Source: a virus
Reading direction: 5' to 3' (one strand)
IMG/VR virus record: IMGVR_UViG_3300045988_174371
Span: 296,644 to 360,643 of that record
DNA: 64,000 nucleotides
Both the position numbers and the translations under genes were made by a program. Under the pieces are notes generated by a model that saw nothing but the letters and a program-made list of their open reading frames with translations, was not told the DNA's origin and made no database searches. The first letter of the stretch is position 1. Each line of letters begins with the position of its first letter. Positions 5,767 through 64,000 of the stretch are shown here, one piece after another.

Positions 5767-8475
5767 CTAGGAGGCATCCTCAGCGTTCTTCTTGCGACGC
5801 TTCGTGAAGTACACAGCGCCACCCGCAAGAGCCAGAATACCAATACCGCCAGCAACAGCCACAGTAGTAGCATCCATACCGGTAATACCGTAACCAGTGT
5901 CACCAGTCTCAGCCTTAGCCTTCTCAATAGGCTTAGGCTGTTCAGGCTTAGCAGGCTCAGAAGGCTTCGGGGTCTCGGGGGTTACAGGCGGAGGGGTAAC
6001 CTTGGTGACAGTCATGTCGCAACCGTCAGTGTCTTCATCCACGGTAGCGTTCACCTGGCACTCCTTCGGAGGGGTGGTGGGGGTCGGGTCTTCCGGGGTG
6101 GGGTTATTCGTTAGCACGATAGTGTTGAGAATACCCTCAGAGGCGACACGAGCCATGTCAAGGTCGTTCTTGAGAGTGACCTCAACCTCAAACTCGACAG
6201 TCTCACCCGCCTTAAGCTCACCAATTTCCCAGACATTGCCGTTTACGACACCGCGACCGTTAGTGTTCAGGAACTTCACCGAAGCAACATCGAACTGCGC
6301 GTTATCCGGGAACTCGGAGATAACAGCCTTCTCCATGTCAGCACCGGAGGCGTTCTTAGCCTGAGCCTTCCAACGCAAGGTAGCGCCCGGCTTCACCTCA
6401 GATGCAGGAGTCATCAGCTCCTTATTCACCTGACCAGTAATTTCCTTCACACGGTGGATGGAAGTGACGATAGGCTTATTATTGATGGTCACAACACCAA
6501 GGTCACGCATCTCATCAGCCTTAAAGTCGTTCAGGGACTTAGACTCCACCTTAAGAGAGTAGGCGGAATTAACAGCCAGCTTACCCGGCTCCTTAGCGGT
6601 AGCGGTAACCACGTCAGCAACATGACCGTCAAAGTCGGTGCCAGTACCAGAGACGAGCTTACCCTTCTCAACCTTGATGTCGAAGAGGTTGGTTACGTCC
6701 TTGCCATCAGCGTCCACAACCTTAAGCTTATCCTCAGTAATGGACACCAGAGCACGCCAATTGCCGTCGCCGTCCTTCGCATACTCCACAAGGTCAGTGA
6801 TGGAGAACTGCTCAGGTGCCTTCACGCCGGTATTGCCCGTAACGGTCTGAGTCGGCAAATCGTTACCAGCAGGAATAACAATGTCCTCGTTCGCAACGGT
6901 CTTCTCAGGCGCAACATTAGCCAGCTTAATGACCTTCTTGTTCACCTTAACCTCGGGAACCGGCTTCGGGGCAGGCTTAGCCACCGGAGGAAGCTCAGGG
7001 ACAGGCTTCAGAGGCTTCAGCTGAGGCTTCACCGGAGCAACAGCGGTAGGCGCAACAGTGTTAGCGCTCAACATCAAGTGGTTGTAGGAAGCATCAATGG
7101 AGTAGTCGCTGTAGCGGGAAGCGCCGGTGTTCTGCGGGTCACCAATAACACCGTCAGTGCCAGGCACACCCTCATTGCCAGTGGTGCCGAAGAAGAACGT
7201 GCCACCATTCTCCATCAGGTAAGTGACACCCAGGTACTTCAACGCATCGTCGTTCTCATCAAACACTGCGCCGCCCTGGTTCGAACCAGCCTTGATGTAG
7301 AAGCCACGGTCTACCAGCTGAGAAGCAGTACCGTGAACCTTCTGAGCCTCAGGCGCGATACGAGAGTCCTTATTCACGAACGTAGCAAGGACACCCTTAC
7401 CCGGCGCAGTAATCTCGTAACGAACAGCAGACTCAGTACCATTGTTCTCCTGAGCATTCAGAGAACCAACAGTGTTGTAAATCTTCTTCTCGTACTTCTC
7501 ACCAGTATCACCATAGGTGAAGTACAGCTGAACCTCAGAAGCGTAAGACTTCTGCATAGCCACAATGTCATTGTAAGAAGAATAGACATCGTACATGTTC
7601 TGCCACTTAGGAGAACCATCAGCGCCTACCGGAGAGCCGTTCGGGTTGGATACGAAACGAAGAATCTTCACTTCAACATCCAGAGGACGCTTCGTTTCCT
7701 TGTCAATCGCCACACCCTTGTACTTCATGGTCAAGTTCGGGTTGTTCGGGTCAAGGTTAGTGAAACGGTAGGCGTACTCAGACGACCAGCTATCCGGGAA
7801 GTCGGTACGGTCAGCGGTTGAGCCAGCCGGTGCCTTGCCGTTGATGGTTGCGAGGTTATTCGGGCTATCTACAAGCTCGAAAGGCTGTTCCAGCGCAAGC
7901 TTATCAACGTTGTTGATAGCCTTGTACGGGTTAGCGTTGGATACCTGCTCAGCGTACAGCTTGTCGTAAGCCGCCTTCGCCTCGTTGTACCGCTTGGTAG
8001 CTTCCTCGTTTTCCTTGGTAATCTTCTCGTTCTCAGCCTTGATGTCAGCAATCTGCTTCTCAATCTGAGAGCGGTCAGCATTAGCCTTCTCAGCCTTCTT
8101 AGCGTCAGCCTTATTATCAGCGATGGTCTTTACAGCTTCACGCAACTTGGCAATGGTGGCAGTACTTTCCTTCTTAGCCTCAGCAACCTTAGCCTCAGCC
8201 TCAGCCATAGAAGAAACAGTCACCTCCTGAGTCTCACCAGCAGACACCTTGACACCCTGCGCCTCAGCCGCCTTCACAGCCTCATCAAGCGCAGAATAAT
8301 CAACAGGGATGTCCTGCGTGGTCTTACCGTAAGCCTCAGCAGACACAGCACCCTCATACTTGAGGGGCTTCGCCTCATCGGTCGTGATGGCATTAGCCGC
8401 ACCTGCAACAGAGGTCGTGCCAATAAGTGCAAGACCGACACCAGCGGTCATCTTCTTCATAGAACTCTTAGACAT
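5767..8475 (-). CDS. cell-wall-anchored surface adhesin (Ala-rich coiled coil, globular region, Pro-rich linker, DUF11-like Ig domain, sorting signal)
   Basis: Signal peptide MSKSSMKKMTAGVGLALIGTTSVAGAANA. P-rich APVKPQLKPLKPVPELPPVAKPAPKPVPE. C-terminus AKAETG, then a hydrophobic stretch, then KRRKK (LAxTG-like sorting signal). Confidence 0.85.
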   Translation of the reverse strand: MSKSSMKKMTAGVGLALIGTTSVAGAANAITTDEAKPLKYEGAVSAEAYGKTTQDIPVDYSALDEAVKAAEAQGVKVSAGETQEVTVSSMAEAEAKVAEAKKESTATIAKLREAVKTIADNKADAKKAEKANADRSQIEKQIADIKAENEKITKENEEATKRYNEAKAAYDKLYAEQVSNANPYKAINNVDKLALEQPFELVDSPNNLATINGKAPAGSTADRTDFPDSWSSEYAYRFTNLDPNNPNLTMKYKGVAIDKETKRPLDVEVKILRFVSNPNGSPVGADGSPKWQNMYDVYSSYNDIVAMQKSYASEVQLYFTYGDTGEKYEKKIYNTVGSLNAQENNGTESAVRYEITAPGKGVLATFVNKDSRIAPEAQKVHGTASQLVDRGFYIKAGSNQGGAVFDENDDALKYLGVTYLMENGGTFFFGTTGNEGVPGTDGVIGDPQNTGASRYSDYSIDASYNHLMLSANTVAPTAVAPVKPQLKPLKPVPELPPVAKPAPKPVPEVKVNKKVIKLANVAPEKTVANEDIVIPAGNDLPTQTVTGNTGVKAPEQFSITDLVEYAKDGDGNWRALVSITEDKLKVVDADGKDVTNLFDIKVEKGKLVSGTGTDFDGHVADVVTATAKEPGKLAVNSAYSLKVESKSLNDFKADEMRDLGVVTINNKPIVTSIHRVKEITGQVNKELMTPASEVKPGATLRWKAQAKNASGADMEKAVISEFPDNAQFDVASVKFLNTNGRGVVNGNVWEIGELKAGETVEFEVEVTLKNDLDMARVASEGILNTIVLTNNPTPEDPTPTTPPKECQVNATVDEDTDGCDMTVTKVTPPPVTPETPKPSEPAKPEQPKPIEKAKAETGDTGYGITGMDATTVAVAGGIGILALAGGAVYFTKRRKKNAEDAS

Positions 8476-44330: not shown

Positions 44331-45896
44331 CTACATTTCGTTGTTGCCTACCGCGAAGAGCGCGGGGTAGAGTCGGGCACTTAGAGCACCTGCAATGGTT
44401 AGCGGGTTGTGCTCCAAAGACTCAAGGTGGCTATCCAACTTTTCCTGCTGGCTACTAGTGGTAGGATGCAGGTTAATCGACTTAGGCAGACCCAGCTCTT
44501 CAGTAGAGAACGCCTTCAGTAGACCCTCGCTGTGGCTCTTGGAGAGCATCTTGTGAGGAACCATAACCATAGGGTCATCCACACCACCGCCCGTAATGTC
44601 GGTACGGTTAGTGATGCTGTTGATAAGGTACTCCAGGACTGCGTGTAGCGGCGCGCGGAACACGCGGTTGCAATACGGCGACTCTTCATCCACTAACTCC
44701 GAAATAAGGTTCGTCACATTGACGATACCTTCCAGCAGGCGCGCCTTAGCTTCCTCATCAGGGGCAGTATCGGACTTCTCTGGGAGGAAGTCATCAATAT
44801 AGGTGTTTAGGCGCTCTGCAAGGCGGGAGGCATTGTCCTGGTCGTTCTCTGCGGTAGTTCGAGAGACCTTCTCAGGGTTCTCGAAAATTTCCGTAAGCGA
44901 CATGGTTGCAATGGCAGAACCGCCGCCGGTAAGGGAGTCCGCATAGTTCTTGAGTGCGTCAGCAAAGGCGTTGTATCCGTCAAAGCCGATGGTCATCTGG
45001 GTAAAGTGAATCGCCAGGTCGTAGAACTTCTTCGGTTCTTCGGTGGGAAGCGAAGCAAGAAGGTCTGCGAGGTTTTCCCAGCTTCGCGGGGAGCGCCATG
45101 CGTAAGTTGCCGCGTCACGGCAGTTCTCATCCATGCTCTCTGCGAAGCGTTCAATGCGGGCATCACGGTTCATCTCATACAGGGTTCTGTCAGTGCGCTT
45201 GTCGAGATAGGTCGCAATCATCTCTCGGATGCGGCGCTCGTTATCAGTCATAGGCTTACCCCAGGCGACCTTGAAGCCTTCCAGCCAGTCACCAATCGGC
45301 TGGTGGACAGGAATCCAGGTGACGCGGTTCTGCGTGGGCGGCGCAATGGGAGTGGGGTTCACGGAACTAGCCATTGAGTTAGTTGCCAAGACGATAACCG
45401 TCTCAGTAGGGATGGGGGTGCCATCAGGGAAGCGGCGCTCGTTAAAGATGTACAGCATAGCCGCCTGAACGCTCTCGTTCGAGTTGCTGTATTCATCCAG
45501 CAGGAGAATGACCTTGCGGTGCTTGAGGATGCGTACCTGGAACGGTTCGTTGAGGTAGGTCGTAGACGGAACCTCGGTGAAGTTACCTTCTTCGTCAATG
45601 ATGGTGGTAGAGCCTACGGAAGGGATACCCCCGATGGATTCAGGGGAAAGCTGAGCGCCAACAAGCACTTCTACGCTGTGGTAACCCATTTCGTCCTTGA
45701 GGGCGTGGATGGATGCGGTCTTGCCGATGCCGGGGCTACCGATGAGTCCGATAGATTTGCCGGGCTTCAGCTCACCGTTTGCGCCCATATGGGGGAATGC
45801 GCCGTACTTCACTAGTTCCATTGCGGTACTCAGAGATACGGGGGTGACGTTAATTGCGCCGGTGGGCTTTTCGTCTGTCATTACTGCATTAGACAT
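44331..45896 (-). CDS. MoxR-type AAA+ ATPase
   Basis: Walker A GSPGIGKT, Walker B VILLLDEY. GAAGGAG RBS. Immediately downstream of a VWA gene. Confidence 0.9.
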   Translation of the reverse strand: MSNAVMTDEKPTGAINVTPVSLSTAMELVKYGAFPHMGANGELKPGKSIGLIGSPGIGKTASIHALKDEMGYHSVEVLVGAQLSPESIGGIPSVGSTTIIDEEGNFTEVPSTTYLNEPFQVRILKHRKVILLLDEYSNSNESVQAAMLYIFNERRFPDGTPIPTETVIVLATNSMASSVNPTPIAPPTQNRVTWIPVHQPIGDWLEGFKVAWGKPMTDNERRIREMIATYLDKRTDRTLYEMNRDARIERFAESMDENCRDAATYAWRSPRSWENLADLLASLPTEEPKKFYDLAIHFTQMTIGFDGYNAFADALKNYADSLTGGGSAIATMSLTEIFENPEKVSRTTAENDQDNASRLAERLNTYIDDFLPEKSDTAPDEEAKARLLEGIVNVTNLISELVDEESPYCNRVFRAPLHAVLEYLINSITNRTDITGGGVDDPMVMVPHKMLSKSHSEGLLKAFSTEELGLPKSINLHPTTSSQQEKLDSHLESLEHNPLTIAGALSARLYPALFAVGNNEM

Positions 45897-45935
45897 GGTG
45901 GTTAGTCTCCTTCTTAGGTGGTGTAGAGATGTTGC

Positions 45936-47723
45936 TTAGTGTGCAACTCGGATGATGGTTGGTTTGTAGTTTGCTGGTAGCGACTTGAAATATTCATGCA
46001 TATGCAGGATGTCCTTGTCGCTATGCTTGGAGGTTAGAACGATAGCCAGCCCGTAGTTATGCTTGCACTTAAGGGCGTTGGCTACGTTCTGCCAGTCGAT
46101 GTATCCGTCGGTAATGAGGATGCCCAGTGCGGCGGGAGGGTTCTTCTTCTCTCGGCTCGTCTCATACTCGTTGAGAGCGTTGATGAAAGGAGTCATGGCG
46201 GTACCGCCGCCACCCTTAAACACCACGTCAGATAGTTTCTTCACCGGCTGGAAATCGCCTAGAACAGTGTCAATAGCGCTAATGCGTAGGTCTGCTCGGT
46301 TCTTGAAACTATCAATAATGCGCTCAATATTACCTAGCACACGCCCACTATCTTCCCTGGTATGCATGGAGCCAGAGGTATCCACTCCAATGTACACGGT
46401 CGGCTTGACTGCATAACGAGTTGGAAGTAGCACTCGCTTATCTGGCAGGGCGGCGTTTAGTCGGTTGAACCTACGGAAGGTGCGGTGAGTACTGCCGGTG
46501 GTTCGGTGAGAAGACGCAATAGTGAGAACCTTCTTGAGCTGTGTAGACCATACGACATAGTTGCCTGCGTCAATCTTGAGCACCCAGTTAAGAATGTTGT
46601 CCAGGTGGGTGTTGCCGATAGACTTACGCATCTGCTCTGCACGTACTAGGGCGAGCATGTCGTTACGGCTTTCACGTTTGATAAGCTCGTCAGCCGCCTG
46701 GATACCCAGCGCGTCCATGAGGCTCTGAAGCATTTCAGCAGTAACAAACTGGTCGGTCATCTCGGTAAACTTCCCCTGCTGGGTATTGCTCTCGGGGGAA
46801 CCTGCTTCGCCGGGGGTGCCACCATTGCCGCCAGAAGCTCCCTTATCGCTGTCACTAGTGCTATTGCCCTGCTGGTCACCATTGCTGGGATTTGCGCCGC
46901 TATTGGAGCCGCTGGTGTCGCTATCAGAGTTACCACTGGAGGTATCGCTGGAGCCGGTATCCTCATTATTGGTATTAGAGGTGCCGTCACCTTCTTCACT
47001 GTTCTTATCGTCGCTACCGCCATCATTACTGAGGCTTGAGCGCTGAGAGGCACCATTATTCGATTTAACATCAGAGCTATTATCCCCCTGCGGTTCGCCG
47101 GTAGGCGAAGCAGACTCATTGCTCTGCGGCTTACTTTCAGCAGAGCCGCTACCTCCACCAGAGCCTTGCTGTCCTAGGGCTTCTGCGTCATCCCTAAGCG
47201 CGTTGTGGAACTCCTCTGCGATGCCGCTGGCGGGGAGGTTGTAGTCTGCGGGAACAAAGTCAATGCCGGGAGTGAGGCGGAAGCGACCGGAGATGCCACT
47301 GATGCGCTGGTTAATTTCAAGGTCGAATGCCAGGCGGGTAATCTCGTCATCTTTGTAGCCTCGGGTAGCAACGCGCTTATCCTGTAGGATGATGATTCGC
47401 AAAATTTCACGGAGCGCCACCTTGAGGGTTTCCGCGTTGCGATAGGTGTCTAGAGAGCCCTCAGGGAGGCTGATGCGCCAGTCCTTGTCGATGCTTGCCT
47501 GCTTGGAGTTGATGATTGCAGGGCGCACCTGTCGAATGATGGGTGCAAAGTATGGTGAGATGCTTGTCAGCTCGTCCGTGAGGTGAATGAACACGTCAAG
47601 CTCTTTAGGGGTGAGCTTACGTAGCATGATGGGCACTTTCTTAGGGCTATTTGCCGGTAGCCCAGTAATGCTGTTTACAGCGGGCGCGCCGGGCGGCGGT
47701 GCCATCTGAATAATAGGGAGCAT
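45936..47723 (-). CDS. VWA-domain protein with MIDAS motif, N-terminal DUF2201-like (putative metallopeptidase-like) region and an S/G/D/N-rich linker
   Basis: ATG at 47723 (MLPIIQMAPPPG) 8 nt after AAGGAGGGG. YIGVDTSGSMH (DxSxS). Linker of about 130 aa. Confidence 0.85.
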   Translation of the reverse strand: MLPIIQMAPPPGAPAVNSITGLPANSPKKVPIMLRKLTPKELDVFIHLTDELTSISPYFAPIIRQVRPAIINSKQASIDKDWRISLPEGSLDTYRNAETLKVALREILRIIILQDKRVATRGYKDDEITRLAFDLEINQRISGISGRFRLTPGIDFVPADYNLPASGIAEEFHNALRDDAEALGQQGSGGGSGSAESKPQSNESASPTGEPQGDNSSDVKSNNGASQRSSLSNDGGSDDKNSEEGDGTSNTNNEDTGSSDTSSGNSDSDTSGSNSGANPSNGDQQGNSTSDSDKGASGGNGGTPGEAGSPESNTQQGKFTEMTDQFVTAEMLQSLMDALGIQAADELIKRESRNDMLALVRAEQMRKSIGNTHLDNILNWVLKIDAGNYVVWSTQLKKVLTIASSHRTTGSTHRTFRRFNRLNAALPDKRVLLPTRYAVKPTVYIGVDTSGSMHTREDSGRVLGNIERIIDSFKNRADLRISAIDTVLGDFQPVKKLSDVVFKGGGGTAMTPFINALNEYETSREKKNPPAALGILITDGYIDWQNVANALKCKHNYGLAIVLTSKHSDKDILHMHEYFKSLPANYKPTIIRVAH

Positions 47724-47752
47724 ACAGCAACCCCTCCTTTCTTTCAAAGAAT

Positions 47753-47763
47753 AGTGTATCACA
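47753..47763 (-). promoter_or_regulatory. extended -10 promoter TGTGATACACT
   Basis: 30 nt upstream of the ATG at 47723. Confidence 0.55.
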
Positions 47764-59674: not shown

Positions 59675-59979
59675 TACCGCACCCTATGGAGCCAACCCAA
59701 GGGTGCACCCGAAGGCTCATGACAACCTCCAGGGAGACATCCGTGTGCATAGAAGCTACCCACCCCCCCGGCAGAGGCGCTACCTCTGCAAAGCCTATGG
59801 AATGGGGCTGATACAGCACAGATGAGCCAAGGCTTCAATCCTTGACAGCGACCATCCAGACAGCCGAAGCTACCCTTCCTGGTCTTGACACCACCTGAAA
59901 GTGATACCCGTTTAATTTAGCCACCTCTCCATCCTCTCAATAGGCGAGGTGAGCAACACACCGCAAAGAGTGCGTTACG
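59675..59979 (-). repeat. tRNA-trailer structured element, copy C
   Basis: CGTAAC, H1, H2 CACCTCGCCTATTGAGAGGATGGAGAGGTG, AAATTAAACGG, GGTGTCAAGACCAGGAAGG. The tail shares CCTTGGCTCATCT with copy A. Confidence 0.7.
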
Positions 59980-60078: not shown

Positions 60079-60221
60079 GTATAGCCAGCATAGTTTGGTT
60101 GTACCCCGTAGGAATGGGGTGAGAATTTAAGAAGCCCGAGGGACACCTCATCTATAGGCGTACCCTAAAGAGTCCCCCTATAAGGTTAAGCCCTCGAACC
60201 GGCTTTAAAATCGGCGCATTA

Positions 60222-60293
60222 GTGGGGCTCTGCCAATTGAGCTACCAACAGCTTTGTGAGGTGCTGGACGGGATTCGAACCCGCATCTCCCAC
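60222..60293 (-). ncRNA. circularly permuted tRNA-like module 2
   Basis: Order on the minus strand: GTGGG, AGAT, GCGGG-TTCGAAT-CCCGT, CCAGCA-loop-TGTTGG, TA, GCTC-AATTGGCA-GAGC, CCCAC. Flanks pair GGCGC/GCGCC. Confidence 0.65.
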
Positions 60294-60338
60294 CTAGCGC
60301 CGAGTAACACAGAATAAATGAACCTATCCTACGTTACG

Positions 60339-60411
60339 TGCCCTAGGCAGGATTTGAACCTGCGACTCTCCGCTTAGAAGGCGGTTGCTCTATCCGCTGA
60401 ACTACTAGGGC
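60339..60411 (-). tRNA. tRNA-Arg (anticodon TCT)
   Basis: GCCCTAG..., anticodon loop CTTCTAA. Confidence 0.85.
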
Positions 60412-60686
60412 TAAAAAGTTATGAAGGAACCATCTCCCGCATACGGGGAAGCCGCTTCATAACTAGGGTAAACACCCAGTCAGCATATGAAGCGCCTTTT
60501 GGTTCCCCAAGGCGGTTAGATGAGCCAAGGATTCGCCTTTGATGGTATCCCTCCGGCTGGCAAACGTCAGCCTTATTGGTCTTGACACCACCGCAACCCA
60601 GCTAGGCATTGGTAATGTCCATTTATTTCAACCACCCCTCCCGCCTCTCGCAGGTGAGGTGAGCGCGCGCCCGAAAGCGCACTATG
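60412..60686 (-). repeat. tRNA-trailer structured element, copy A (full length)
   Basis: H1 GTGCGC..GCGCGC, H2 CACCTCACCTGCGAGAGGCGGGAGGGGTG, GAAATAAATGG, GGTGTCAAGACCAATAAGG, hairpin GGCTGACGTTTGCCAGCC. The terminal hairpin plus TTTTTA abuts the next tRNA. Confidence 0.7.
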
Positions 60687-60758
60687 TATCCCCGACGGGA
60701 ATCGAACCCGCGCCTCCGCCTTGAAAGGGCGGTATCCTAGCCGTTAGACCACGGGGAC
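60687..60758 (-). tRNA. tRNA-Glu (anticodon TTC)
   Basis: GTCCCCG..., anticodon loop CTTTCAA, G1-U72. Confidence 0.8.
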
Positions 60759-60788
60759 GTATTGTGTGGTTCTACGGAAAGTAGAGCG

Positions 60789-60863
60789 TGCTCCCCGCAG
60801 GATTTGAACCTGCGACCCCGACGTTCGTAGCGTCGTACTCTATCCAGGCTGAGCTAGGGGAGC
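60789..60863 (-). tRNA. tRNA-Arg (anticodon ACG)
   Basis: GCTCCCC..., anticodon loop CTACGAA. Confidence 0.85.
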
Positions 60864-60865
60864 GG

Positions 60866-60937
60866 GGTGAGTGACGGGAATCGAACCCGCTAATACTTGC
60901 GCCACAAGCAAGCGCCGCACCGTTTGGCTTCACTCAC
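60866..60937 (-). tRNA. tRNA-His (anticodon GTG)
   Basis: GTGAGTG..., anticodon loop TTGTGGC, discriminator C. No G-1 encoded (T at -1). Confidence 0.8.
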
Positions 60938-60939
60938 AG

Positions 60940-61013
60940 TGCCCTTGGGTGGACTTGAACCACCGACCTCCGCTTTATCAGAGCGACGCGCTAACCAACT
61001 GCGCTACAAGGGC
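60940..61013 (-). tRNA. tRNA-Ile (anticodon GAT)
   Basis: GCCCTTG..., anticodon loop CTGATAA. Confidence 0.85.
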
Positions 61014-61025
61014 TAGAATAATAGA

Positions 61026-61034
61026 ATTGTAACA
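61026..61034 (-). promoter_or_regulatory. extended -10 promoter TGTTACAAT for the Ile-His-Arg-Glu tRNA block
   Basis: 12 nt upstream of the tRNA-Ile 5' end. Confidence 0.5.
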
Positions 61035-61216
61035 TAATGTCATATGTGTAAGGAAGATGGCATGGAGCCCCTAGATGTCTAACCACCCTAACAAAATGAA
61101 GACACCTAGTGAAGCCAACCTACATGCGTCGGAAAGCGAACTCCGAAGCCACCTACCCGTTTTCACTCTCTCATTTTCCATAGATGAGAGAAGGCGTAGC
61201 TAATAAAAGCTATGCG

Positions 61217-61292
61217 CGGTCTGTACGGGGCTCGAACCCGCGACCTCCGCCGTGACAGGGCGGCACTCTAACCAACACTGAGCTAACAGACC
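61217..61292 (-). tRNA. tRNA-Asp (anticodon GTC)
   Basis: GGTCTGT..., anticodon loop CTGTCAC. Confidence 0.85.
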
Positions 61293-61402
61293 ATGAGAGT
61301 GCCCCCGCTAAGAGACACTATACATCCTACAAGACAGCCGGGGAGCTACCCCTATGGAAGTGTGTAGGGCACTTCCCCTGTGTGCGGCTTAAACCGGCAC
61401 CA

Positions 61403-61473
61403 ACCAGACGCTCTAAACACTGAGCTACACGTGCAATGTGGCACATGACAGGATTTTAACCTGCGACCTTCTG
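61403..61473 (-). ncRNA. circularly permuted tRNA-like module 1
   Basis: CCAGA, AGGTC, GCAGG-TTAAAAT-CCTGT, CATGTGC-CACATT-GCACGTG, TA, GCTC-AGTGTTTA-GAGC, G, TCTGG. Flanks form the imperfect helix TTACGCCGG/CCGGTTTAA. Confidence 0.7.
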
Positions 61474-61527
61474 GATAGTATATATCCGGCGTAACACGAA
61501 AGGATTAGCTACACCCTCTCAAGCTAC

Positions 61528-61602
61528 GTGCGCCCTGTGGGGCTCGAACCCACGACCCACGGATTAAGAGTCCGTTGCTCTAACCATCTGAGCTAAAGGC
61601 GC
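61528..61602 (-). tRNA. tRNA-Lys (anticodon CTT)
   Basis: GCGCCTT..., anticodon loop CTCTTAA. Confidence 0.85.
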
Positions 61603-61639
61603 TTAACACACACCTGAACGCCTAAAACAGGTGTGTGCG

Positions 61640-61712
61640 TGGACGGTACGGGACTTGAACCCGTAACCTCCTGTGTGCAAAACAGGTGCTCTCCCAATTG
61701 AGCTAACCGCCC
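61640..61712 (-). tRNA. tRNA-Ala (anticodon TGC)
   Basis: GGGCGGT..., G3-U70 identity pair, anticodon loop TTTGCAC. Confidence 0.85.
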
Positions 61713-61764
61713 TAAACCTTGACAAAAGCCAAGAAATCCGTATCACCCATATAGGTAATACAAG

Positions 61765-61838
61765 CTCCCCCGGAAGGACTCGAACCTTCAACCTAGCGAT
61801 TAACAGTCGCTCGCATCTGCCAATTGAGCTACGAGGGA
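61765..61838 (-). tRNA. tRNA-Asn (anticodon GTT)
   Basis: TCCCTCG..., anticodon loop CTGTTAA. One extra T in the 3' strand of the D-stem. Confidence 0.75.
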
Positions 61839-61869
61839 ATACACCTCCCCAGTAGGGGAAGCTTAAGCC

Positions 61870-61900
61870 CGCCTGTGGGCTACCAATTTCGCCACAGGCG
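61870..61900 (-). ncRNA. tRNA-Leu-derived mini-helix (acceptor strand plus D-loop closed on itself)
   Basis: CGCCTGTGG-CGAAATTGGTAGC-CCACAGGCG. The loop matches the D-loop of the Leu tRNAs in this array. Confidence 0.4.
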
Positions 61901-61920
61901 ATTAAAACGTAAGTACGACA

Positions 61921-61929
61921 ATCATACCA
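61921..61929 (-). promoter_or_regulatory. extended -10 promoter TGGTATGAT for the Asn-Ala-Lys block
   Basis: Downstream of the terminator-like hairpin at 61961-61985. Confidence 0.45.
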
Positions 61930-61960
61930 CGCCAACACTCAATCTCGCAAAAGAATGAGT

Positions 61961-61985
61961 GATAAAAGCCAGAAGCCCGAAGGCT
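61961..61985 (-). terminator. AGCC-TTCG-GGCT hairpin followed by CTTTTAT
   Basis: Ends the transcript that carries permuted module 3. Confidence 0.45.
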
Positions 61986-62065
61986 CCCCTATTGCAATAA
62001 GGGTGCCCCAATAGGTTACCCTAATGAGGCTGAATCCTCGAACCGGACTCAACACCGGCACATCG

Positions 62066-62136
62066 GTGAGGCTCCGCCTATTGAGCTACCAGCGACTCAT
62101 TCGTCGCTGGGCGGGATTCGAACCCACACCTCTCAC
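62066..62136 (-). ncRNA. circularly permuted tRNA-like module 3
   Basis: GTGAG, AGGT, GTGGG-TTCGAAT-CCCGC, CCAGCGAC-GAATGA-GTCGCTGG, TA, GCTC-AATAGGCG-GAGC, C, CTCAC. Flanks pair TCCTCG/CGAGGA. Confidence 0.7.
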
Positions 62137-62194
62137 CTAGTACTACTTATACGACCGAGGAACATAAACACGTGTACATCATGCTTACGTTACG

Positions 62195-62274
62195 TGCTTC
62201 CGACCGGATTTGAACCGGCGCGCGGGCACTCTCATGCACCGCAAGCGCTCCCATAGCCGTTATGTGCAGAAGGC
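62195..62274 (-). tRNA. atypical tRNA-like gene, anticodon undetermined
   Basis: Canonical T arm GCCGG-TTCAAAT-CCGGT, acceptor CCTTCTG/CGGAAGC and a CGTAAC trailer. The central 45 nt does not fold into D and anticodon arms. Confidence 0.4.
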
Positions 62275-62346
62275 TCATGAAAGACGCTCCCCTTAACCTA
62301 GCTTGGATACGGAAGCGGGCACCCACATGCACTTGTGGACACCAAG

Positions 62347-62579: not shown

Positions 62580-62627
62580 TAGGGTACGTAGAAGCTATAG
62601 CCGAACATATTACTTAGATGTGTTACG

Positions 62628-62711
62628 TGCCGCCGGAGGGATTTGAACCCCCAAAACCATAATGGTGACAGATTTACAGTCTGCTTCCTTCGCCAATAGG
62701 AGTGCAACGGC
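62628..62711 (-). tRNA. tRNA-Tyr (anticodon GTA), class II, copy 1
   Basis: GCCGTTG..., anticodon loop CTGTAAA, long variable arm. Confidence 0.85.
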
Positions 62712-62793
62712 TTATATTGAATAGTTTGTTCTATATGGTTATCAATGAGCTTTACGTCGGCGGCTTTTTCGAACCCCCGCGTCTTATATATCA

Positions 62794-63315: not shown

Positions 63316-63470
63316 CCTGTGTGGGTGCGCTACCAATTACGCTACAAGACAGCCAGGTGCTTGTACAGGGCACGCTGGCATACTAAGGTCTTGACCGGAC
63401 TCGAACCGGCACCTCCCTGCCCATGTTTTTAAGCCAAACAGTCGTTCAGCTAATGACTTTACACCACAGG
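63316..63470 (-). ncRNA. expanded permuted tRNA-like module 4
   Basis: Outer helix CCTGTG(G)TG/CACACAGG encloses T arm GCCGG-TTCGAGT-CCGGT, acceptor CAAGAC...GTCTTG closed by a ~37-nt loop, and D arm GCGT-AATTGGTA-GCGC. Confidence 0.5.
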
Positions 63471-63675: not shown

Positions 63676-63910
63676 TTAGGGGAGCCGTGAGGCATCCCGC
63701 ATGTATGGGAGAGTTGCTACTGCGCCTCCCCCGTATGTGAGGTAGGTCAGGGATTCTCCTGACAGTGACCCTCCAGCTGGCAAACGTCAGCCTTCCTGGT
63801 CTTGACACCACCGCCGCCCAATCGGGGCTTGGCAATGTCCGCTTACTTCACCCACCTCGCCCAGCATCTCTACAGGCGAGGTGGCGACACACCGCTTGGG
63901 GTGTGTTGCG
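63676..63910 (-). repeat. tRNA-trailer structured element, copy E
   Basis: CGCAAC, H1 ACACCCC..GGTGTGT, H2 perfect 10 bp CCACCTCGCC/GGCGAGGTGG, GGTGTCAAGACCAGGAAGG, GGCTGACGTTTGCCAGC. Confidence 0.7.
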
Positions 63911-63994
63911 TGCCGCCGGAGGGATTTGAACCCCCAAAACCATAATGGTGACAGATTTACAGTCTGCTTCCTTCGCCAATAGGAGTGCAACGGC
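63911..63994 (-). tRNA. tRNA-Tyr (anticodon GTA), copy 2
   Basis: Identical by eye to 62628-62711, including 6 nt of 5' leader. Confidence 0.85.
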
Positions 63995-64000
63995 TTATAT

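What the first reader, a model, noticed from the sequence alone, without database searches (positions are those of the whole stretch)
60222..62136. Three circularly permuted tRNA-like modules inside the tRNA array
Modules at 61403-61473, 60222-60293 and 62066-62136 carry the tRNA segments in a permuted order on the minus strand: anticodon-stem 3' strand, variable loop, T arm, acceptor 3' strand, a 6-11 nt closing loop, acceptor 5' strand, TA, D arm, then anticodon-stem 5' strand.
- The T arms have a canonical GTTCGAAT or TTAAAAT loop, and the D arms have GCTC...GG...GAGC.
- Acceptor strands are mutually complementary: CATGTGC/GCACGTG, CCAGCA/TGTTGG, CCAGCGAC/GTCGCTGG.
- Anticodon-stem strands are also complementary: CCAGA/TCTGG, GTGGG/CCCAC, GTGAG/CTCAC.
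- The three differ in sequence but keep the pairing, which amounts to covariation.
- The sequences beyond the anticodon stem do not form a U33-containing loop. Instead they can form imperfect helices and share conserved flanks (GTGTTAC.C.G upstream; GCCGGTT / GGTTCGAGG downstream).
- This topology is what is described for the tRNA-like domain of bacterial YrlA-type Y RNAs, which bind Ro60/Rsr and have been reported in some actinophages. No Ro-like gene is visible in this window, and several diverged copies in one array would be unusual.
- The alternative, true permuted tRNA genes, is known only from archaea and algae.
Basis: partly seen in the sequence, partly recalled or inferred. Interest (0 to 1): 0.85.

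Follow-up and report, generated by a model that had tools for sequence, protein, structure and literature searches.

The report
Y-RNA-like tRNA mimics in phage tRNA array
A giant, otherwise unknown phage carries, among its tRNA genes, four genes for RNAs that fold like a tRNA body with no anticodon loop. This is the hallmark of bacterial YrlA-type Y RNAs, but the usual partner gene, Ro60, is not nearby.

Summary
At 60222-60293, 61403-61473 and 62066-62136 (minus strand) lie complete tRNA bodies in permuted order: T arm, closed acceptor hairpin, D arm, then an anticodon-like stem that runs into a distal helix instead of a loop. RNAfold recovers this fold unaided. With an artificial anticodon loop, the re-joined sequences are called 73-nt tRNAs by ARAGORN.

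A covariance model built only from M1 and M3 finds:
- M2;
- a fourth, diverged copy at 63324-63417;
- the known YrlA beside Ro60 in mycobacteriophage Bxz1;
- 107 sites in 62 of 80 viral Ro60 loci, 106 of them on the Ro60 strand and nearly all just upstream of the gene.

Rfam YrlA scores (41, 32.6, 30.4 bits) are below its threshold, but the Bxz1 YrlA scores only 32.5. Stems covary: 94% of cells are paired against 36-44% in slid controls.

So these are YrlA-class tRNA mimics, not permuted tRNA genes or decayed tRNA pairs. The unusual points are their setting as cassettes in the tRNA array of a roughly 300-kb uncultivated phage, and the absence of any detectable Ro60/TROVE gene in the 64-kb window or in the flanks of relatives. 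The strict Ro-binding motif is also missing. A Ro60 partnership is therefore inferred, not shown. Multiple copies are normal for this family.

The parts
60212..60303 (-). Module M1. The tRNA-like core is 60222-60293. It is closed by the distal helix CGGCGC/GCGCCG, across a UA / AAU internal loop.
   Evidence: Minimum-energy fold is the full permuted cloverleaf, z -4.1. Rfam YrlA 41.0 bits, E 1.3e-6. Called a tRNA by ARAGORN after un-permuting. Orthologs in 13 related loci.
61393..61491 (-). Module M2. The core is 61403-61473. It has a 5' GCCGGA motif (61485-61490), a 5-nt bulge, the short helix UAC/GUG, and a 3' CCGG (61394-61397). It carries the G15:C48 Levitt pair and a 7-bp acceptor stem.
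   Evidence: Found by model R1, which was built without it: 36.2 bits, E about 1e-6. Rfam YrlA aligns it over the full model length, 30.4 bits. Minimum-energy fold is the cloverleaf, z -3.1. An ortholog exists in the more distant relative L017 (2605-2695), and all six stem substitutions there keep pairing.
62054..62160 (-). Module M3. The core is 62066-62136. It has an 8-bp acceptor hairpin, a 6-bp anticodon-like stem, and a distal helix UCGG/CCGG plus UAC/GUG with a 12-nt 5' bulge.
   Evidence: Minimum-energy fold is the cloverleaf, z -2.6. Rfam YrlA 32.6 bits. Called a tRNA by ARAGORN after un-permuting. Nearly identical orthologs in relatives.
63324..63417 (-). Module M4, a fourth and diverged copy. 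It has T arm GCCGG-UUCGAGU-CCGGU, a 6-bp acceptor stem whose loop carries a 37-nt extra hairpin, and D arm GCGU/GCGC. The anticodon-like stem is weak. Its 3' flank is homologous to that of M3.
   Evidence: R1 gives 29.1 bits with a local match. Orthologs in 8 related loci show compensatory changes in the T stem (C-G to G-C) and in the insertion hairpin. The isolated fold is no better than shuffles, z 0.13, so confidence is lower and the copy may be decaying.
60304..60337 (-). 14-bp hairpin (GUAACGU...GUGUUAC) between the 3' end of tRNA-Arg(tct) and M1. Equivalent hairpins lie at 61491-61527 before M2 and 62161-62191 before M3.
   Evidence: Folds. The same hairpin follows tRNAs in slots that hold a different element (L017). 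It is therefore a general post-tRNA feature of the array, not specific to the modules.
60188..60205 (-). Hairpin with a T-loop-like loop (AAGCC-GGUUCGAG-GGCUU), 3' of M1. Its counterpart, GAGUCC-GGUUCGA-GGAUUC, lies at 62032-62050, 3' of M3. A degenerate version follows M4.
   Evidence: Alignment and folds. It is absent after M2, and absent from the L017 slot where M3 is replaced. Whether it belongs to the mature RNA is unknown.
61961..61988 (-). Terminator-like hairpin plus U-rich tail downstream of M3, followed by a promoter-like site with an extended -10 at 61921-61950. These suggest M3 sits at the end of a tRNA transcription unit.
   Evidence: These are consensus matches only; the number found is no higher than in shuffled sequence.

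Best explanation
The modules are genes for YrlA-type (Y-RNA-like) non-coding RNAs.

What the RNA looks like. Each RNA folds into a complete tRNA body: acceptor stem, D arm, T arm, variable region and the nucleotides that make the tertiary contacts. The chain starts and ends at the anticodon side and the acceptor stem is closed by a loop, so the RNA cannot decode. The anticodon-like stem continues, across a small asymmetric internal loop, into a distal helix rich in CGG/CCG. In M2 this region carries a GCCGGA motif.

How it most likely works (inferred).
1. The modules are co-transcribed with the phage tRNAs from the minus strand.
2. The tRNA-processing nucleases release them, and terminator-like hairpins define their 3' ends.
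3. tRNA enzymes treat them as tRNA-like substrates.
4. During infection they act as Y RNAs. The distal helix and motif dock a Ro60/Rsr ring, and the tRNA-like domain tethers or gates an effector such as PNPase, reshaping RNA decay and quality control.

The Ro60 would have to come from the host, or from the roughly 240 kb of the phage genome outside this window.

What is shown and what is not. The fold, its conservation and covariation, and its membership of the YrlA structural class are shown. Transcription, processing and the Ro60 partnership are not.
For: Structure:
- The fold is recovered unaided by RNAfold for M1, M2 and M3.
- Un-permuted sequences are called tRNAs by ARAGORN.
- The sequences carry U8, A14, G18G19, U54-A58, G53-C61, G46 and A9. 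The Levitt pair covaries: A15:U48 in M1 and M3, G15:C48 in M2.

Link to the YrlA family:
- Rfam YrlA hits all three modules (41.0, 32.6, 30.4 bits). The genuine Bxz1 YrlA, about 190 nt upstream of Ro60 gp220, scores 32.5 bits.
- Model R1, built from M1 and M3 only, finds M2 (36.2 bits), M4 (29.1 bits) and the Bxz1 YrlA as the only strong hit in 50 kb of Bxz1 (30.3 bits).
- R1 also gives 107 hits in 62 of 80 viral Ro60 loci. 106 of them are on the Ro60 strand, and nearly all lie within about 1.5 kb upstream of it.
- tRNA-tRNA junctions in the window score 18.3 bits or less with R1.

Covariation over 22 distinct copies:
- 94.2% of cells are paired, against 36-44% with slid partners.
- 15 of 26 pairs show changes on both sides.
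- The covariation score is 0.453 against 0.177 in shuffles (0 of 500 reach it).

Family-specific junctions:
- CUA(G/U) before the anticodon-like stem, (A/G)AUG after it, and the closing helix.
- M2, and a fifth paralog type M5 seen only in the relative L012, carry GCCGGA with a 3' CCGGU. This is the form seen in most Ro60-adjacent viral YrlAs.

Literature:
- Phage-encoded Y RNAs with Ro60 are established (PMC4201824; PMC12135203; PMC7824862).
Against: - No Ro60/TROVE gene is detectable in the 64-kb window. The searches were tblastn with Bxz1 gp220 (best E 9.7); a TROVE HMM on six-frame ORFs; Pfam on 30 ORFs; and hhalign of all ORFs of 250 aa or more against a TROVE alignment (probability below 1%). 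None is found within about 10 kb either side of the neighbouring gene in two relatives, although positive controls were found. The family's locational criterion, within 4 kb of Ro60 on the same strand, is therefore not met.
- The strict GNCGAAN0-1G motif is absent: M1 has GGCGCUAG, M2 GCCGGAUA, M3 GUCGUAUA.
- In three relatives the 5' strand of M3's distal helix is replaced by unrelated sequence.
- Several close relatives carry single A.C or C.A mismatches in the distal and anticodon-like stems.
- A model built from genuine Ro60-adjacent YrlAs does not separate the modules cleanly from tRNA-tRNA junctions (46.5-34.7 bits against up to 38.3). It also aligns the flanks poorly.
- All Rfam scores are below the gathering score of 69 bits.
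- There are no expression data.
Confidence: 0.6

Rival explanations
1. The modules are Ro60-independent tRNA mimics. They share the YrlA-like fold but work without Ro60. They might act as decoys or sponges for host enzymes or defence nucleases that recognise the tRNA body. [quoted passage not shown] They would be one of several interchangeable small-RNA cassettes in the phage's tRNA array.
For: - No Ro60 in 64 kb or in relatives' flanks.
- The strict Ro-binding motif is absent, and the 5' distal strand of M3 is dispensable in some relatives.
- In the relative L017, the slots of M1 and M3 hold a different structured RNA plus CRISPR-like repeats. This suggests a cassette system of accessory RNAs.
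- M2 and M3 have 7- and 8-bp acceptor stems. According to PMC4201824, a 7-bp acceptor stem is the feature that makes M. smegmatis YrlA an RNase P substrate.
Against: - The distal helix, the junction motifs and the GCCGGA/CCGGU pair in M2 and M5 resemble those of Ro60-linked YrlAs.
- Every characterised YrlA is a Ro60 partner.
- About 240 kb of the phage genome, and the host, are unexamined.
- Phage Ro60 proteins can be too diverged for sequence searches (PMC12135203, PMC12282133).
Confidence: 0.27
2. The modules are decayed remains of neighbouring tRNA genes. The 3' half of one tRNA and the 5' half of the next would have been brought together by deletion, leaving no function.
For: - tRNA-tRNA junctions do score on YrlA models: 30.3 bits at 60809-60918 on Rfam YrlA, and up to 38.3 bits on R2.
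- M4 folds no better than shuffled sequence.
- Some orthologs carry single mismatches.
Against: - Acceptor strands from two different tRNAs would not be complementary. Here they form 6-8-bp hairpins with 6-11-nt loops, and the two anticodon-stem strands also match.
- Five paralog types keep the same architecture, with compensatory changes in 15 of 26 pairs.
- The modules are conserved in a lineage whose neighbouring protein is only 66% identical.
- The YrlA-specific junctions are present.
- R1 separates the modules (29 bits or more) from junctions in the window (18.3 bits or less).
Confidence: 0.05
3. The modules are true circularly permuted tRNA genes. Their transcripts would be circularised and re-cut into functional tRNAs, as in Cyanidioschyzon merolae.
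For: The segment order matches that of permuted tRNA genes, and the un-permuted bodies are tRNA-like.
Against: - Joining the two sides of the internal loop would give 5-6-nt loops (AAUUA, GAUUA, UUGUAU), with no U33 and no 7-nt anticodon loop.
- There is no bulge-helix-bulge motif: the unpaired bases face each other and are not staggered by 4 bp.
- From general knowledge, no splicing endonuclease pathway is known in bacteria or their phages.
- The acceptor loops carry no CCA.
- The sequences match YrlA junction motifs instead.
Confidence: 0.02
4. The modules are the tRNA-like domain of a two-piece (permuted) tmRNA.
For: They share the order T arm, acceptor 3' strand, intervening loop, acceptor 5' strand.
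Against: - ARAGORN's tRNA/tmRNA search of the whole window reports no tmRNA. A tmRNA-only run on the M4 region and two neighbouring stretches also finds none.
- A full D stem is present, which tmRNA lacks.
- The third acceptor pair is U.G, A-U or G-C, not G3.U70.
- No tag reading frame or pseudoknots follow.
Confidence: 0.01

Closest known systems
YrlA RNAs of Salmonella Typhimurium and Mycobacterium smegmatis (Rfam RF02553; Chen et al. 2014, PMC4201824)
   Same: - Same permuted tRNA-like domain: V region, T arm, closed acceptor stem-loop, D arm.
- Near-invariant UAGCUCA...GAGC D arm and GGUUCGA T loop.
- The Levitt pair covaries.
- YUA junction, a 4-6-bp anticodon-like stem, then a closing helix.
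- M2 aligns to the whole Rfam model.
- The 7-8-bp acceptor stems of M2 and M3 resemble the RNase P-cleaved M. smegmatis form.
   Different: - Not next to a Ro60 gene.
- The strict GNCGAAN0-1G motif is absent.
- Scores are below the Rfam gathering threshold.
- The anticodon-like stem is longer and the body closer to a canonical tRNA.
- The modules sit inside a phage tRNA array, each directly after a tRNA and a hairpin.
YrlA RNAs of Ro60-encoding phages (mycobacteriophage Bxz1/ET08 and viral Ro60 loci in IMG/VR)
   Same: - Phage-encoded and often present in several copies.
- Mutually detectable with covariance models.
- M2 and M5 share GCCGGA, AGGUC before the T arm, UGUAGCUCAG, and a 3' CCGGU.
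   Different: - Those RNAs lie 0.1-1.5 kb upstream of Ro60 on its strand.
- They mostly carry a local V hairpin instead of a true anticodon-like stem.
- Here no Ro60 is seen in 64 kb.
Deinococcus radiodurans Yrn1 and metazoan Y RNAs
   Same: The inferred logic is the same: a Ro60-binding helix joined to an effector-binding module.
   Different: According to PMC4201824, Yrn1 has only a T-arm-like element, in the opposite orientation, and metazoan Y RNAs have no tRNA-like domain.
Circularly permuted tRNA genes (Cyanidioschyzon merolae and some archaea)
   Same: The 3' half precedes the 5' half, and the acceptor ends are joined by a short intervening sequence.
   Different: There is no anticodon loop to regenerate and no bulge-helix-bulge motif, and the host domain of life is different. 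These are not decoding tRNAs.
Two-piece tmRNA, and other tRNA-like structures such as mascRNA and viral 3' tRNA-like structures
   Same: They mimic the tRNA acceptor/T-arm region and are recognised by tRNA enzymes.
   Different: Those have open, processable acceptor ends and lack a full D arm. Rfam matches to them here fall on real tRNAs only.

Membership tests
YrlA (Y RNA-like, RF02553; Chen et al. 2014) | tRNA-like domain in the order V region, T arm, closed acceptor stem-loop, D arm, with the RNA ends at the anticodon side | tested here: met
   Unaided minimum-energy folds, Rfam alignments, and un-permuted sequences called tRNAs by ARAGORN.
YrlA (Y RNA-like, RF02553; Chen et al. 2014) | Conserved tRNA tertiary-contact nucleotides, with a covarying Levitt pair (G15:C48 or A15:U48) | tested here: met
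   Read directly from the sequences, with numbering fixed. M1 and M3 have A15:U48 and M2 has G15:C48. U8, A14, U54-A58 and G53-C61 are present in all three. In M2, G18G19 and C56 are replaced (UU and A).
YrlA (Y RNA-like, RF02553; Chen et al. 2014) | YUAY at the 5' junction of the tRNA-like domain | tested here: met
   CUAG in M1, CUAU in M2, CUAG in M3. These align to the consensus CUAc.
YrlA (Y RNA-like, RF02553; Chen et al. 2014) | GNCGAAN0-1G motif near the 5' end (the proposed Rsr contact) | tested here: inconclusive
   The strict motif is absent: GGCGCUAG, GCCGGAUA, GUCGUAUA. However, only 9 of 66 distinct YrlA-like candidates in viral Ro60 loci have it within 70 nt upstream of the T arm, and most carry GCCGGA, as M2 and M5 do. 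The flanks align poorly to model R2.
YrlA (Y RNA-like, RF02553; Chen et al. 2014) | Score at or above the Rfam gathering threshold (69 bits) | tested here: not met
   41.0, 32.6 and 30.4 bits. The threshold is uninformative for phage members, because the genuine Bxz1 YrlA scores 32.5 bits.
YrlA (Y RNA-like, RF02553; Chen et al. 2014) | Encoded within about 4 kb of a Ro60/TROVE gene on the same strand | tested here: not met
   No TROVE gene in the 64-kb window or in about 10 kb either side of the neighbouring gene in two relatives. The rest of the roughly 306-kb genome is unexamined. An IMG/VR TROVE scan kept only the best 80 of 309 hits, so it is uninformative.
YrlA (Y RNA-like, RF02553; Chen et al. 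2014) | Reciprocal detectability: a model of the candidates finds genuine YrlAs in their expected position | tested here: met
   R1 (built from M1 and M3 only) gives the Bxz1 YrlA at 30.3 bits, and 107 hits in 62 of 80 Ro60 loci. 106 are on the Ro60 strand, nearly all upstream.
YrlA (Y RNA-like, RF02553; Chen et al. 2014) | Physical binding to Ro60/Rsr; modification by TruB and DusA | not testable with these tools
   Needs immunoprecipitation or gel-shift assays and modification mapping.
Functional (decoding) tRNA | Contiguous cloverleaf with a 7-nt anticodon loop and open acceptor ends | tested here: not met
   Not called by ARAGORN or the Rfam tRNA model in native order. No anticodon loop is present, and the acceptor stem is closed by a loop.
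Circularly permuted tRNA genes | A bulge-helix-bulge motif at the transcript ends, and regeneration of a 7-nt anticodon loop (or other loop) after circularisation | tested here: not met
   The unpaired bases lie opposite each other rather than staggered. Joining them gives 5-6-nt loops without U33 (sequences).
Two-piece tmRNA | G3.U70 in the acceptor stem, no D stem, a tag reading frame, and detection by ARAGORN | tested here: not met
   ARAGORN's tRNA/tmRNA search of the window reports no tmRNA, and a tmRNA-only run on three stretches including M4 also finds none. A full D stem is present, and the third acceptor pair is U.G, A-U or G-C.

The most novel reading that the evidence does not exclude
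These are 'orphan' YrlA-like tRNA-body mimics that a roughly 300-kb phage deploys without any Ro60. They would be one cassette type in a swappable island of accessory RNAs: tRNAs, tRNA mimics, a second novel structured RNA, and mini-CRISPR-like repeats. They would act on host tRNA-recognising enzymes or tRNA-targeting defences, or serve as RNase P/CCA-processed two-piece tRNA-like molecules. This would give the YrlA fold a function independent of Ro60.
Probability: 0.25. Interest if true: 0.75.

Novelty: new variant of a known kind. Interest (0 to 1): 0.5.

Why it matters
Bacterial and phage Y RNAs have so far been found, and defined, by their position next to Ro60. Here the same tRNA-mimicking fold occurs in four paralogs, with a fifth type in relatives. 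They sit inside the tRNA array of an uncultivated jumbo phage whose proteins are almost all unrecognisable, and no Ro60 is in reach.

If a Ro60 turns up elsewhere in the genome or in the host, this extends the Ro60/Y-RNA system to a new phage lineage. It would also show that the RNA genes can be uncoupled from the protein gene, so surveys based on proximity miss them.

If no Ro60 exists, the tRNA-like domain must have a function of its own. That bears directly on the open question of what the tRNA mimicry in Y RNAs is for.

Tried and rejected
Searches that led nowhere or were inconclusive:
- Near and distant BLAST of the region against 50,697 phage records found only tRNA fragments or nothing. 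No isolate relative exists.
- An exact 36-mer of M1 is not in IMG/VR.
- An exact-protein look-up of the neighbouring 433-aa ORF found nothing on record.
- The Ro60 searches in the window and in all fetched flanks were all negative: tblastn, a TROVE HMM, Pfam, PHROGs, hhalign and a MIDAS-motif search. The only vWA-like protein (45936-47762) is a DUF2201 type, paired with a MoxR-like AAA ATPase. It is not Ro60.
- A TROVE-based scan of IMG/VR, meant to show whether the related 306-kb contig encodes Ro60, returned only the best 80 of 309 hits. None came from that sample, so the result is inconclusive.
- Model R2, built from genuine Ro60-adjacent YrlAs to test the Ro-binding flanks, did not separate modules from tRNA-tRNA junctions, so it was not used as evidence.
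- R1 found no convincing YrlA next to Ro60 in Streptomyces phage Karimac, so the model's reach is limited.
- Host identification through the CRISPR-like repeat gave one Beijerinckiaceae MAG array with a near-identical repeat. This is only a hint.

Ideas considered and dropped:
- That M2's downstream GUUUAAG mirrors its own unusual T loop. The alignment shows it corresponds to M1's AUUUUAAAG, not to the GGUUCGAGG hairpin.
- That the shared downstream domain of M1 and M3 belongs to the module. In L017 most of it follows a different element.
- That the 5' GUGUUAC hairpin corresponds to the YrlA GCCGG/UCGGUUA hairpin. The hairpin also precedes non-module slots.

Full report
**Setting.** The window is 52% G+C DNA from an unknown phage-like genome. 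No isolate phage shares more than tRNA fragments with it. Of 43 distinct ORFs scanned against Pfam and/or PHROGs, only four match anything: an adhesin-like protein, a MoxR-like AAA ATPase, a DUF2201 vWA protein, and one ORF matching PHROG families of unknown function. Close relatives are metagenomic contigs of 267-319 kb, so this is a jumbo phage. From about 57.9 kb to the window end, the minus strand carries a dense tRNA array. ARAGORN finds 25 tRNAs in the whole window, and two further copies of tRNA-Tyr are seen only by Rfam.

The three modules are at the stated coordinates, with the stated segment order and complementarities. Folded alone from distal helix to distal helix, M1, M2 and M3 each give the same minimum-energy structure. 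It has a distal helix, a small internal loop, an anticodon-like stem, a 4-5-nt variable region, a T arm, a closed acceptor hairpin, UA, and a D arm. The z-scores are -4.1, -3.1 and -2.6 (longer contexts). When the two halves are re-joined in tRNA order with an artificial 7-nt anticodon loop, ARAGORN calls all three as 73-nt tRNAs at default settings. In native order, neither ARAGORN nor the Rfam tRNA model calls them. With the numbering fixed this way, U8, A9, A14, G46, G53-C61 and U54-A58 are in place. The Levitt pair is A15:U48 in M1 and M3 and G15:C48 in M2. M2 has UU for G18G19 and A for C56.

**Which family.** Rfam YrlA (RF02553) matches all three modules below its 69-bit gathering score. 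M1 scores 41.0 bits (E 1.3e-6) and M3 32.6. M2 scores 30.4, aligned over the whole model including the 5' helix and its 5-nt bulge. The same model also scores 30.3 bits on the tRNA-Arg/tRNA-His junction, the false-positive type that Chen et al. warned about (PMC4201824). Calibration was therefore needed.
- The genuine YrlA of mycobacteriophage Bxz1 lies about 190 nt upstream of Ro60 gp220. It scores only 32.5 bits.
- I built model R1 from M1 and M3 alone. It finds M2 at 36.2 bits, and a previously unnoticed fourth module at 63324-63417 at 29.1 bits.
- In 50 kb of Bxz1, R1 finds exactly one strong hit, the YrlA, at 30.3 bits. tRNA-tRNA junctions in the window stay at 18.3 bits or less.
- On 80 viral Ro60 loci fetched with a TROVE alignment, R1 gives 107 hits in 62 loci. 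106 are on the Ro60 strand, and nearly all lie 0.1-1.5 kb upstream of the gene. Many loci have 2-4 copies.

The modules therefore belong to the YrlA structural class, and multiple copies are normal for that class.

**Conservation and covariation.**
- A DNA pattern search found 13 metagenomic loci, and a protein search found two IMG/VR contigs. One of the 13 (L007) is a tRNA-tandem false positive.
- Orthologs of M1, M3 and M4 occur in most close relatives, and M2 in about two thirds. A fifth paralog type (M5, with a 4-bp acceptor hairpin, GCCGGA and GCCGGU) is present in one relative.
- On the model-fitted alignment of 22 distinct copies, 94.2% of cells pair, against 36-44% with slid partners. 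15 of 26 pairs change on both sides. The covariation score exceeds all 500 shuffles.
- Caveats: the alignment was fitted to the model, and the changes trace to a handful of paralog splits.
- In the more distant relative L017 (neighbouring protein 66% identical), the M2 ortholog has six stem substitutions. All of them keep pairing. All six are transitions, four of them at wobble pairs, so chance alone would allow this about a quarter of the time.
- Among very close relatives there are also single A.C, C.A and A.G mismatches. In three contigs the 5' strand of M3's distal helix is replaced outright. M4 folds no better than shuffled sequence, although its orthologs show compensatory changes.

**Anatomy around the modules.**
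- Each module sits directly after a tRNA and a 12-14-bp hairpin. The hairpin also precedes slots that hold something else, so it is a general feature of the array.
- M1 and M3 are paralogous units: tRNA, hairpin, module, three or four hairpins, tRNA-Leu(taa), tRNA-Asn. The Leu copy after M3 has decayed.
- A terminator-like hairpin and a promoter-like site with an extended -10 follow M3. These are consensus matches only.
- In L017 the slots of M1 and M3 are occupied by a different structured RNA, in one case followed by CRISPR-like repeats. The array therefore behaves as a set of exchangeable small-RNA cassettes.

**The partner problem.**
- No Ro60/TROVE gene is detectable in the window. The searches were tblastn (best E 9.7), a TROVE HMM, Pfam, and hhalign on every ORF of 250 aa or more (probability below 1%).
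- None is found within about 10 kb either side of the neighbouring gene in two relatives, where positive controls at 39% identity scored E 1e-160.
- The same query finds Ro60 in 354 isolate phages, down to 37% identity. In Streptomyces phage Karimac the Ro60 gene lies in the middle of the tRNA region. A conventional Ro60 next to this array would therefore have been seen.
- Phage Ro60 proteins can be very diverged (PMC12135203; PMC12282133), and about 240 kb of the genome, and the host, were out of reach.
- The strict GNCGAAN0-1G motif is absent. Only 9 of 66 distinct YrlA-like candidates in viral Ro60 loci have it upstream of the T arm, though, and most carry GCCGGA with a 3' CCGGU, as M2 and M5 do.
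- A model built from genuine YrlAs, flanks included, did not discriminate and aligned the flanks poorly.

**Verdict.** The modules are real, structured genes for non-decoding tRNA mimics of the YrlA class. I put this at about 0.85. That they work as Y RNAs with a Ro60 encoded elsewhere is the most economical mechanism but is inferred. The combined statement gets 0.6. A Ro60-independent role is the main rival (about 0.27). Decayed tRNA pairs, true permuted tRNA genes and tmRNA pieces are each contradicted by specific tests.

**Novelty.** I rate this a new variant of a known kind. The fold and its presence in phages are known (PMC4201824, PMC7824862). Three things are new: the tRNA-array cassette context in a dark-matter jumbo phage, the near-canonical tRNA body, and the lack of an adjacent Ro60.

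Noticed in passing
window 59815-59955 and 60515-60668 (minus strand); L001 1258-1380, 1892-2022, 2567-2705, 4648-4800; L017 1326-1458, 4550-4695: A second repeated element of about 140 nt occupies the same kind of post-tRNA slot as the modules. Its conserved blocks are CACCUCGCC..GAGAG..GGGAGAGGUG, GUGUCAAGACC and GGGUCACCGUC. RNAalifold on 8 copies predicts four helices with 39 pairs, 18 of which show compensatory changes. It has no Rfam match at E up to 10. It looks like an undescribed structured RNA.
   Followed up: partly
L001 1444-1645, 2079-2230, 2736-2823; L017 4742-4830 (relatives only; none in the window at 3 or fewer mismatches): Relatives carry mini-arrays of 2-4 CRISPR-like repeats (consensus about TTTTCCCCGTACACGYGGGGATGGC) with a 61-nt period, as in type I-E. 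They sit inside the tRNA array, directly downstream of the second structured element. They could be phage mini-CRISPR arrays or RNA anti-CRISPR-like decoys. A Beijerinckiaceae MAG (L099 5461-5797) has a genuine 61-nt-period array with a near-identical repeat, which is a weak hint to the host.
   Followed up: partly
L001 195-1241 (relative; just beyond the window's right end): A 348-aa ORF with a C-terminal zinc-ribbon/RuvC-like signature (CSNCG...CEHCY...DRDLNAAINI), typical of TnpB/IS605 OrfB. It lies immediately upstream of the first structured element and CRISPR-like repeat unit. No family search was run on it.
   Followed up: no
window 62194-62316 (minus strand); identical in L001 3838-3957 and L017 1176-1298: A 123-nt tRNA-like gene just upstream of M3, with a perfect 7-bp acceptor stem (GCUUCCG/CGGAAGC) and a T arm but about 50 extra nucleotides. 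Default ARAGORN and Rfam miss it. ARAGORN in intron mode calls it tRNA-Glu(ttc) with a 28-nt intron and a long variable arm, which is doubtful.
   Followed up: partly
window 62619-62717 and 63902-64000: A 99-nt direct repeat (99% identical), each copy holding a tRNA-Tyr(gta). Rfam sees both copies at 40.6 bits. For the one copy I re-ran (62628-62711), ARAGORN calls it only at a lowered threshold.
   Followed up: partly
window 61845-61905 (minus strand): A decayed remnant of tRNA-Leu(taa) (GCCUGUGGCGAAAUUGGUAGCCCACAGGCGGGCUUAAGC...) between M3 and tRNA-Asn. It shows that the M1 and M3 units arose by segmental duplication.
   Followed up: partly
window 57.9-64 kb, after many tRNA 3' ends (for example 60304-60337, 61491-61527, 62161-62191, 59950-59978): In the cases examined, the tRNA lacks an encoded CCA and is followed at once by CGUAAC... 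and a 9-14-bp hairpin ending ...GUUAC. This may be a processing or insulating signal of the array.
   Followed up: no
window 44331-47762 (minus strand): An adjacent pair of a MoxR-like AAA ATPase (521 aa; AAA_5, phrog_1297) and a 608-aa protein with a C-terminal vWA-like DUF2201 domain and a DTSGSM MIDAS motif. Together with an adhesin-like 902-aa ORF (5767-8475), these are the only ORFs among the 43 scanned with a functionally informative family match (one further ORF matches PHROG families of unknown function).
   Followed up: partly
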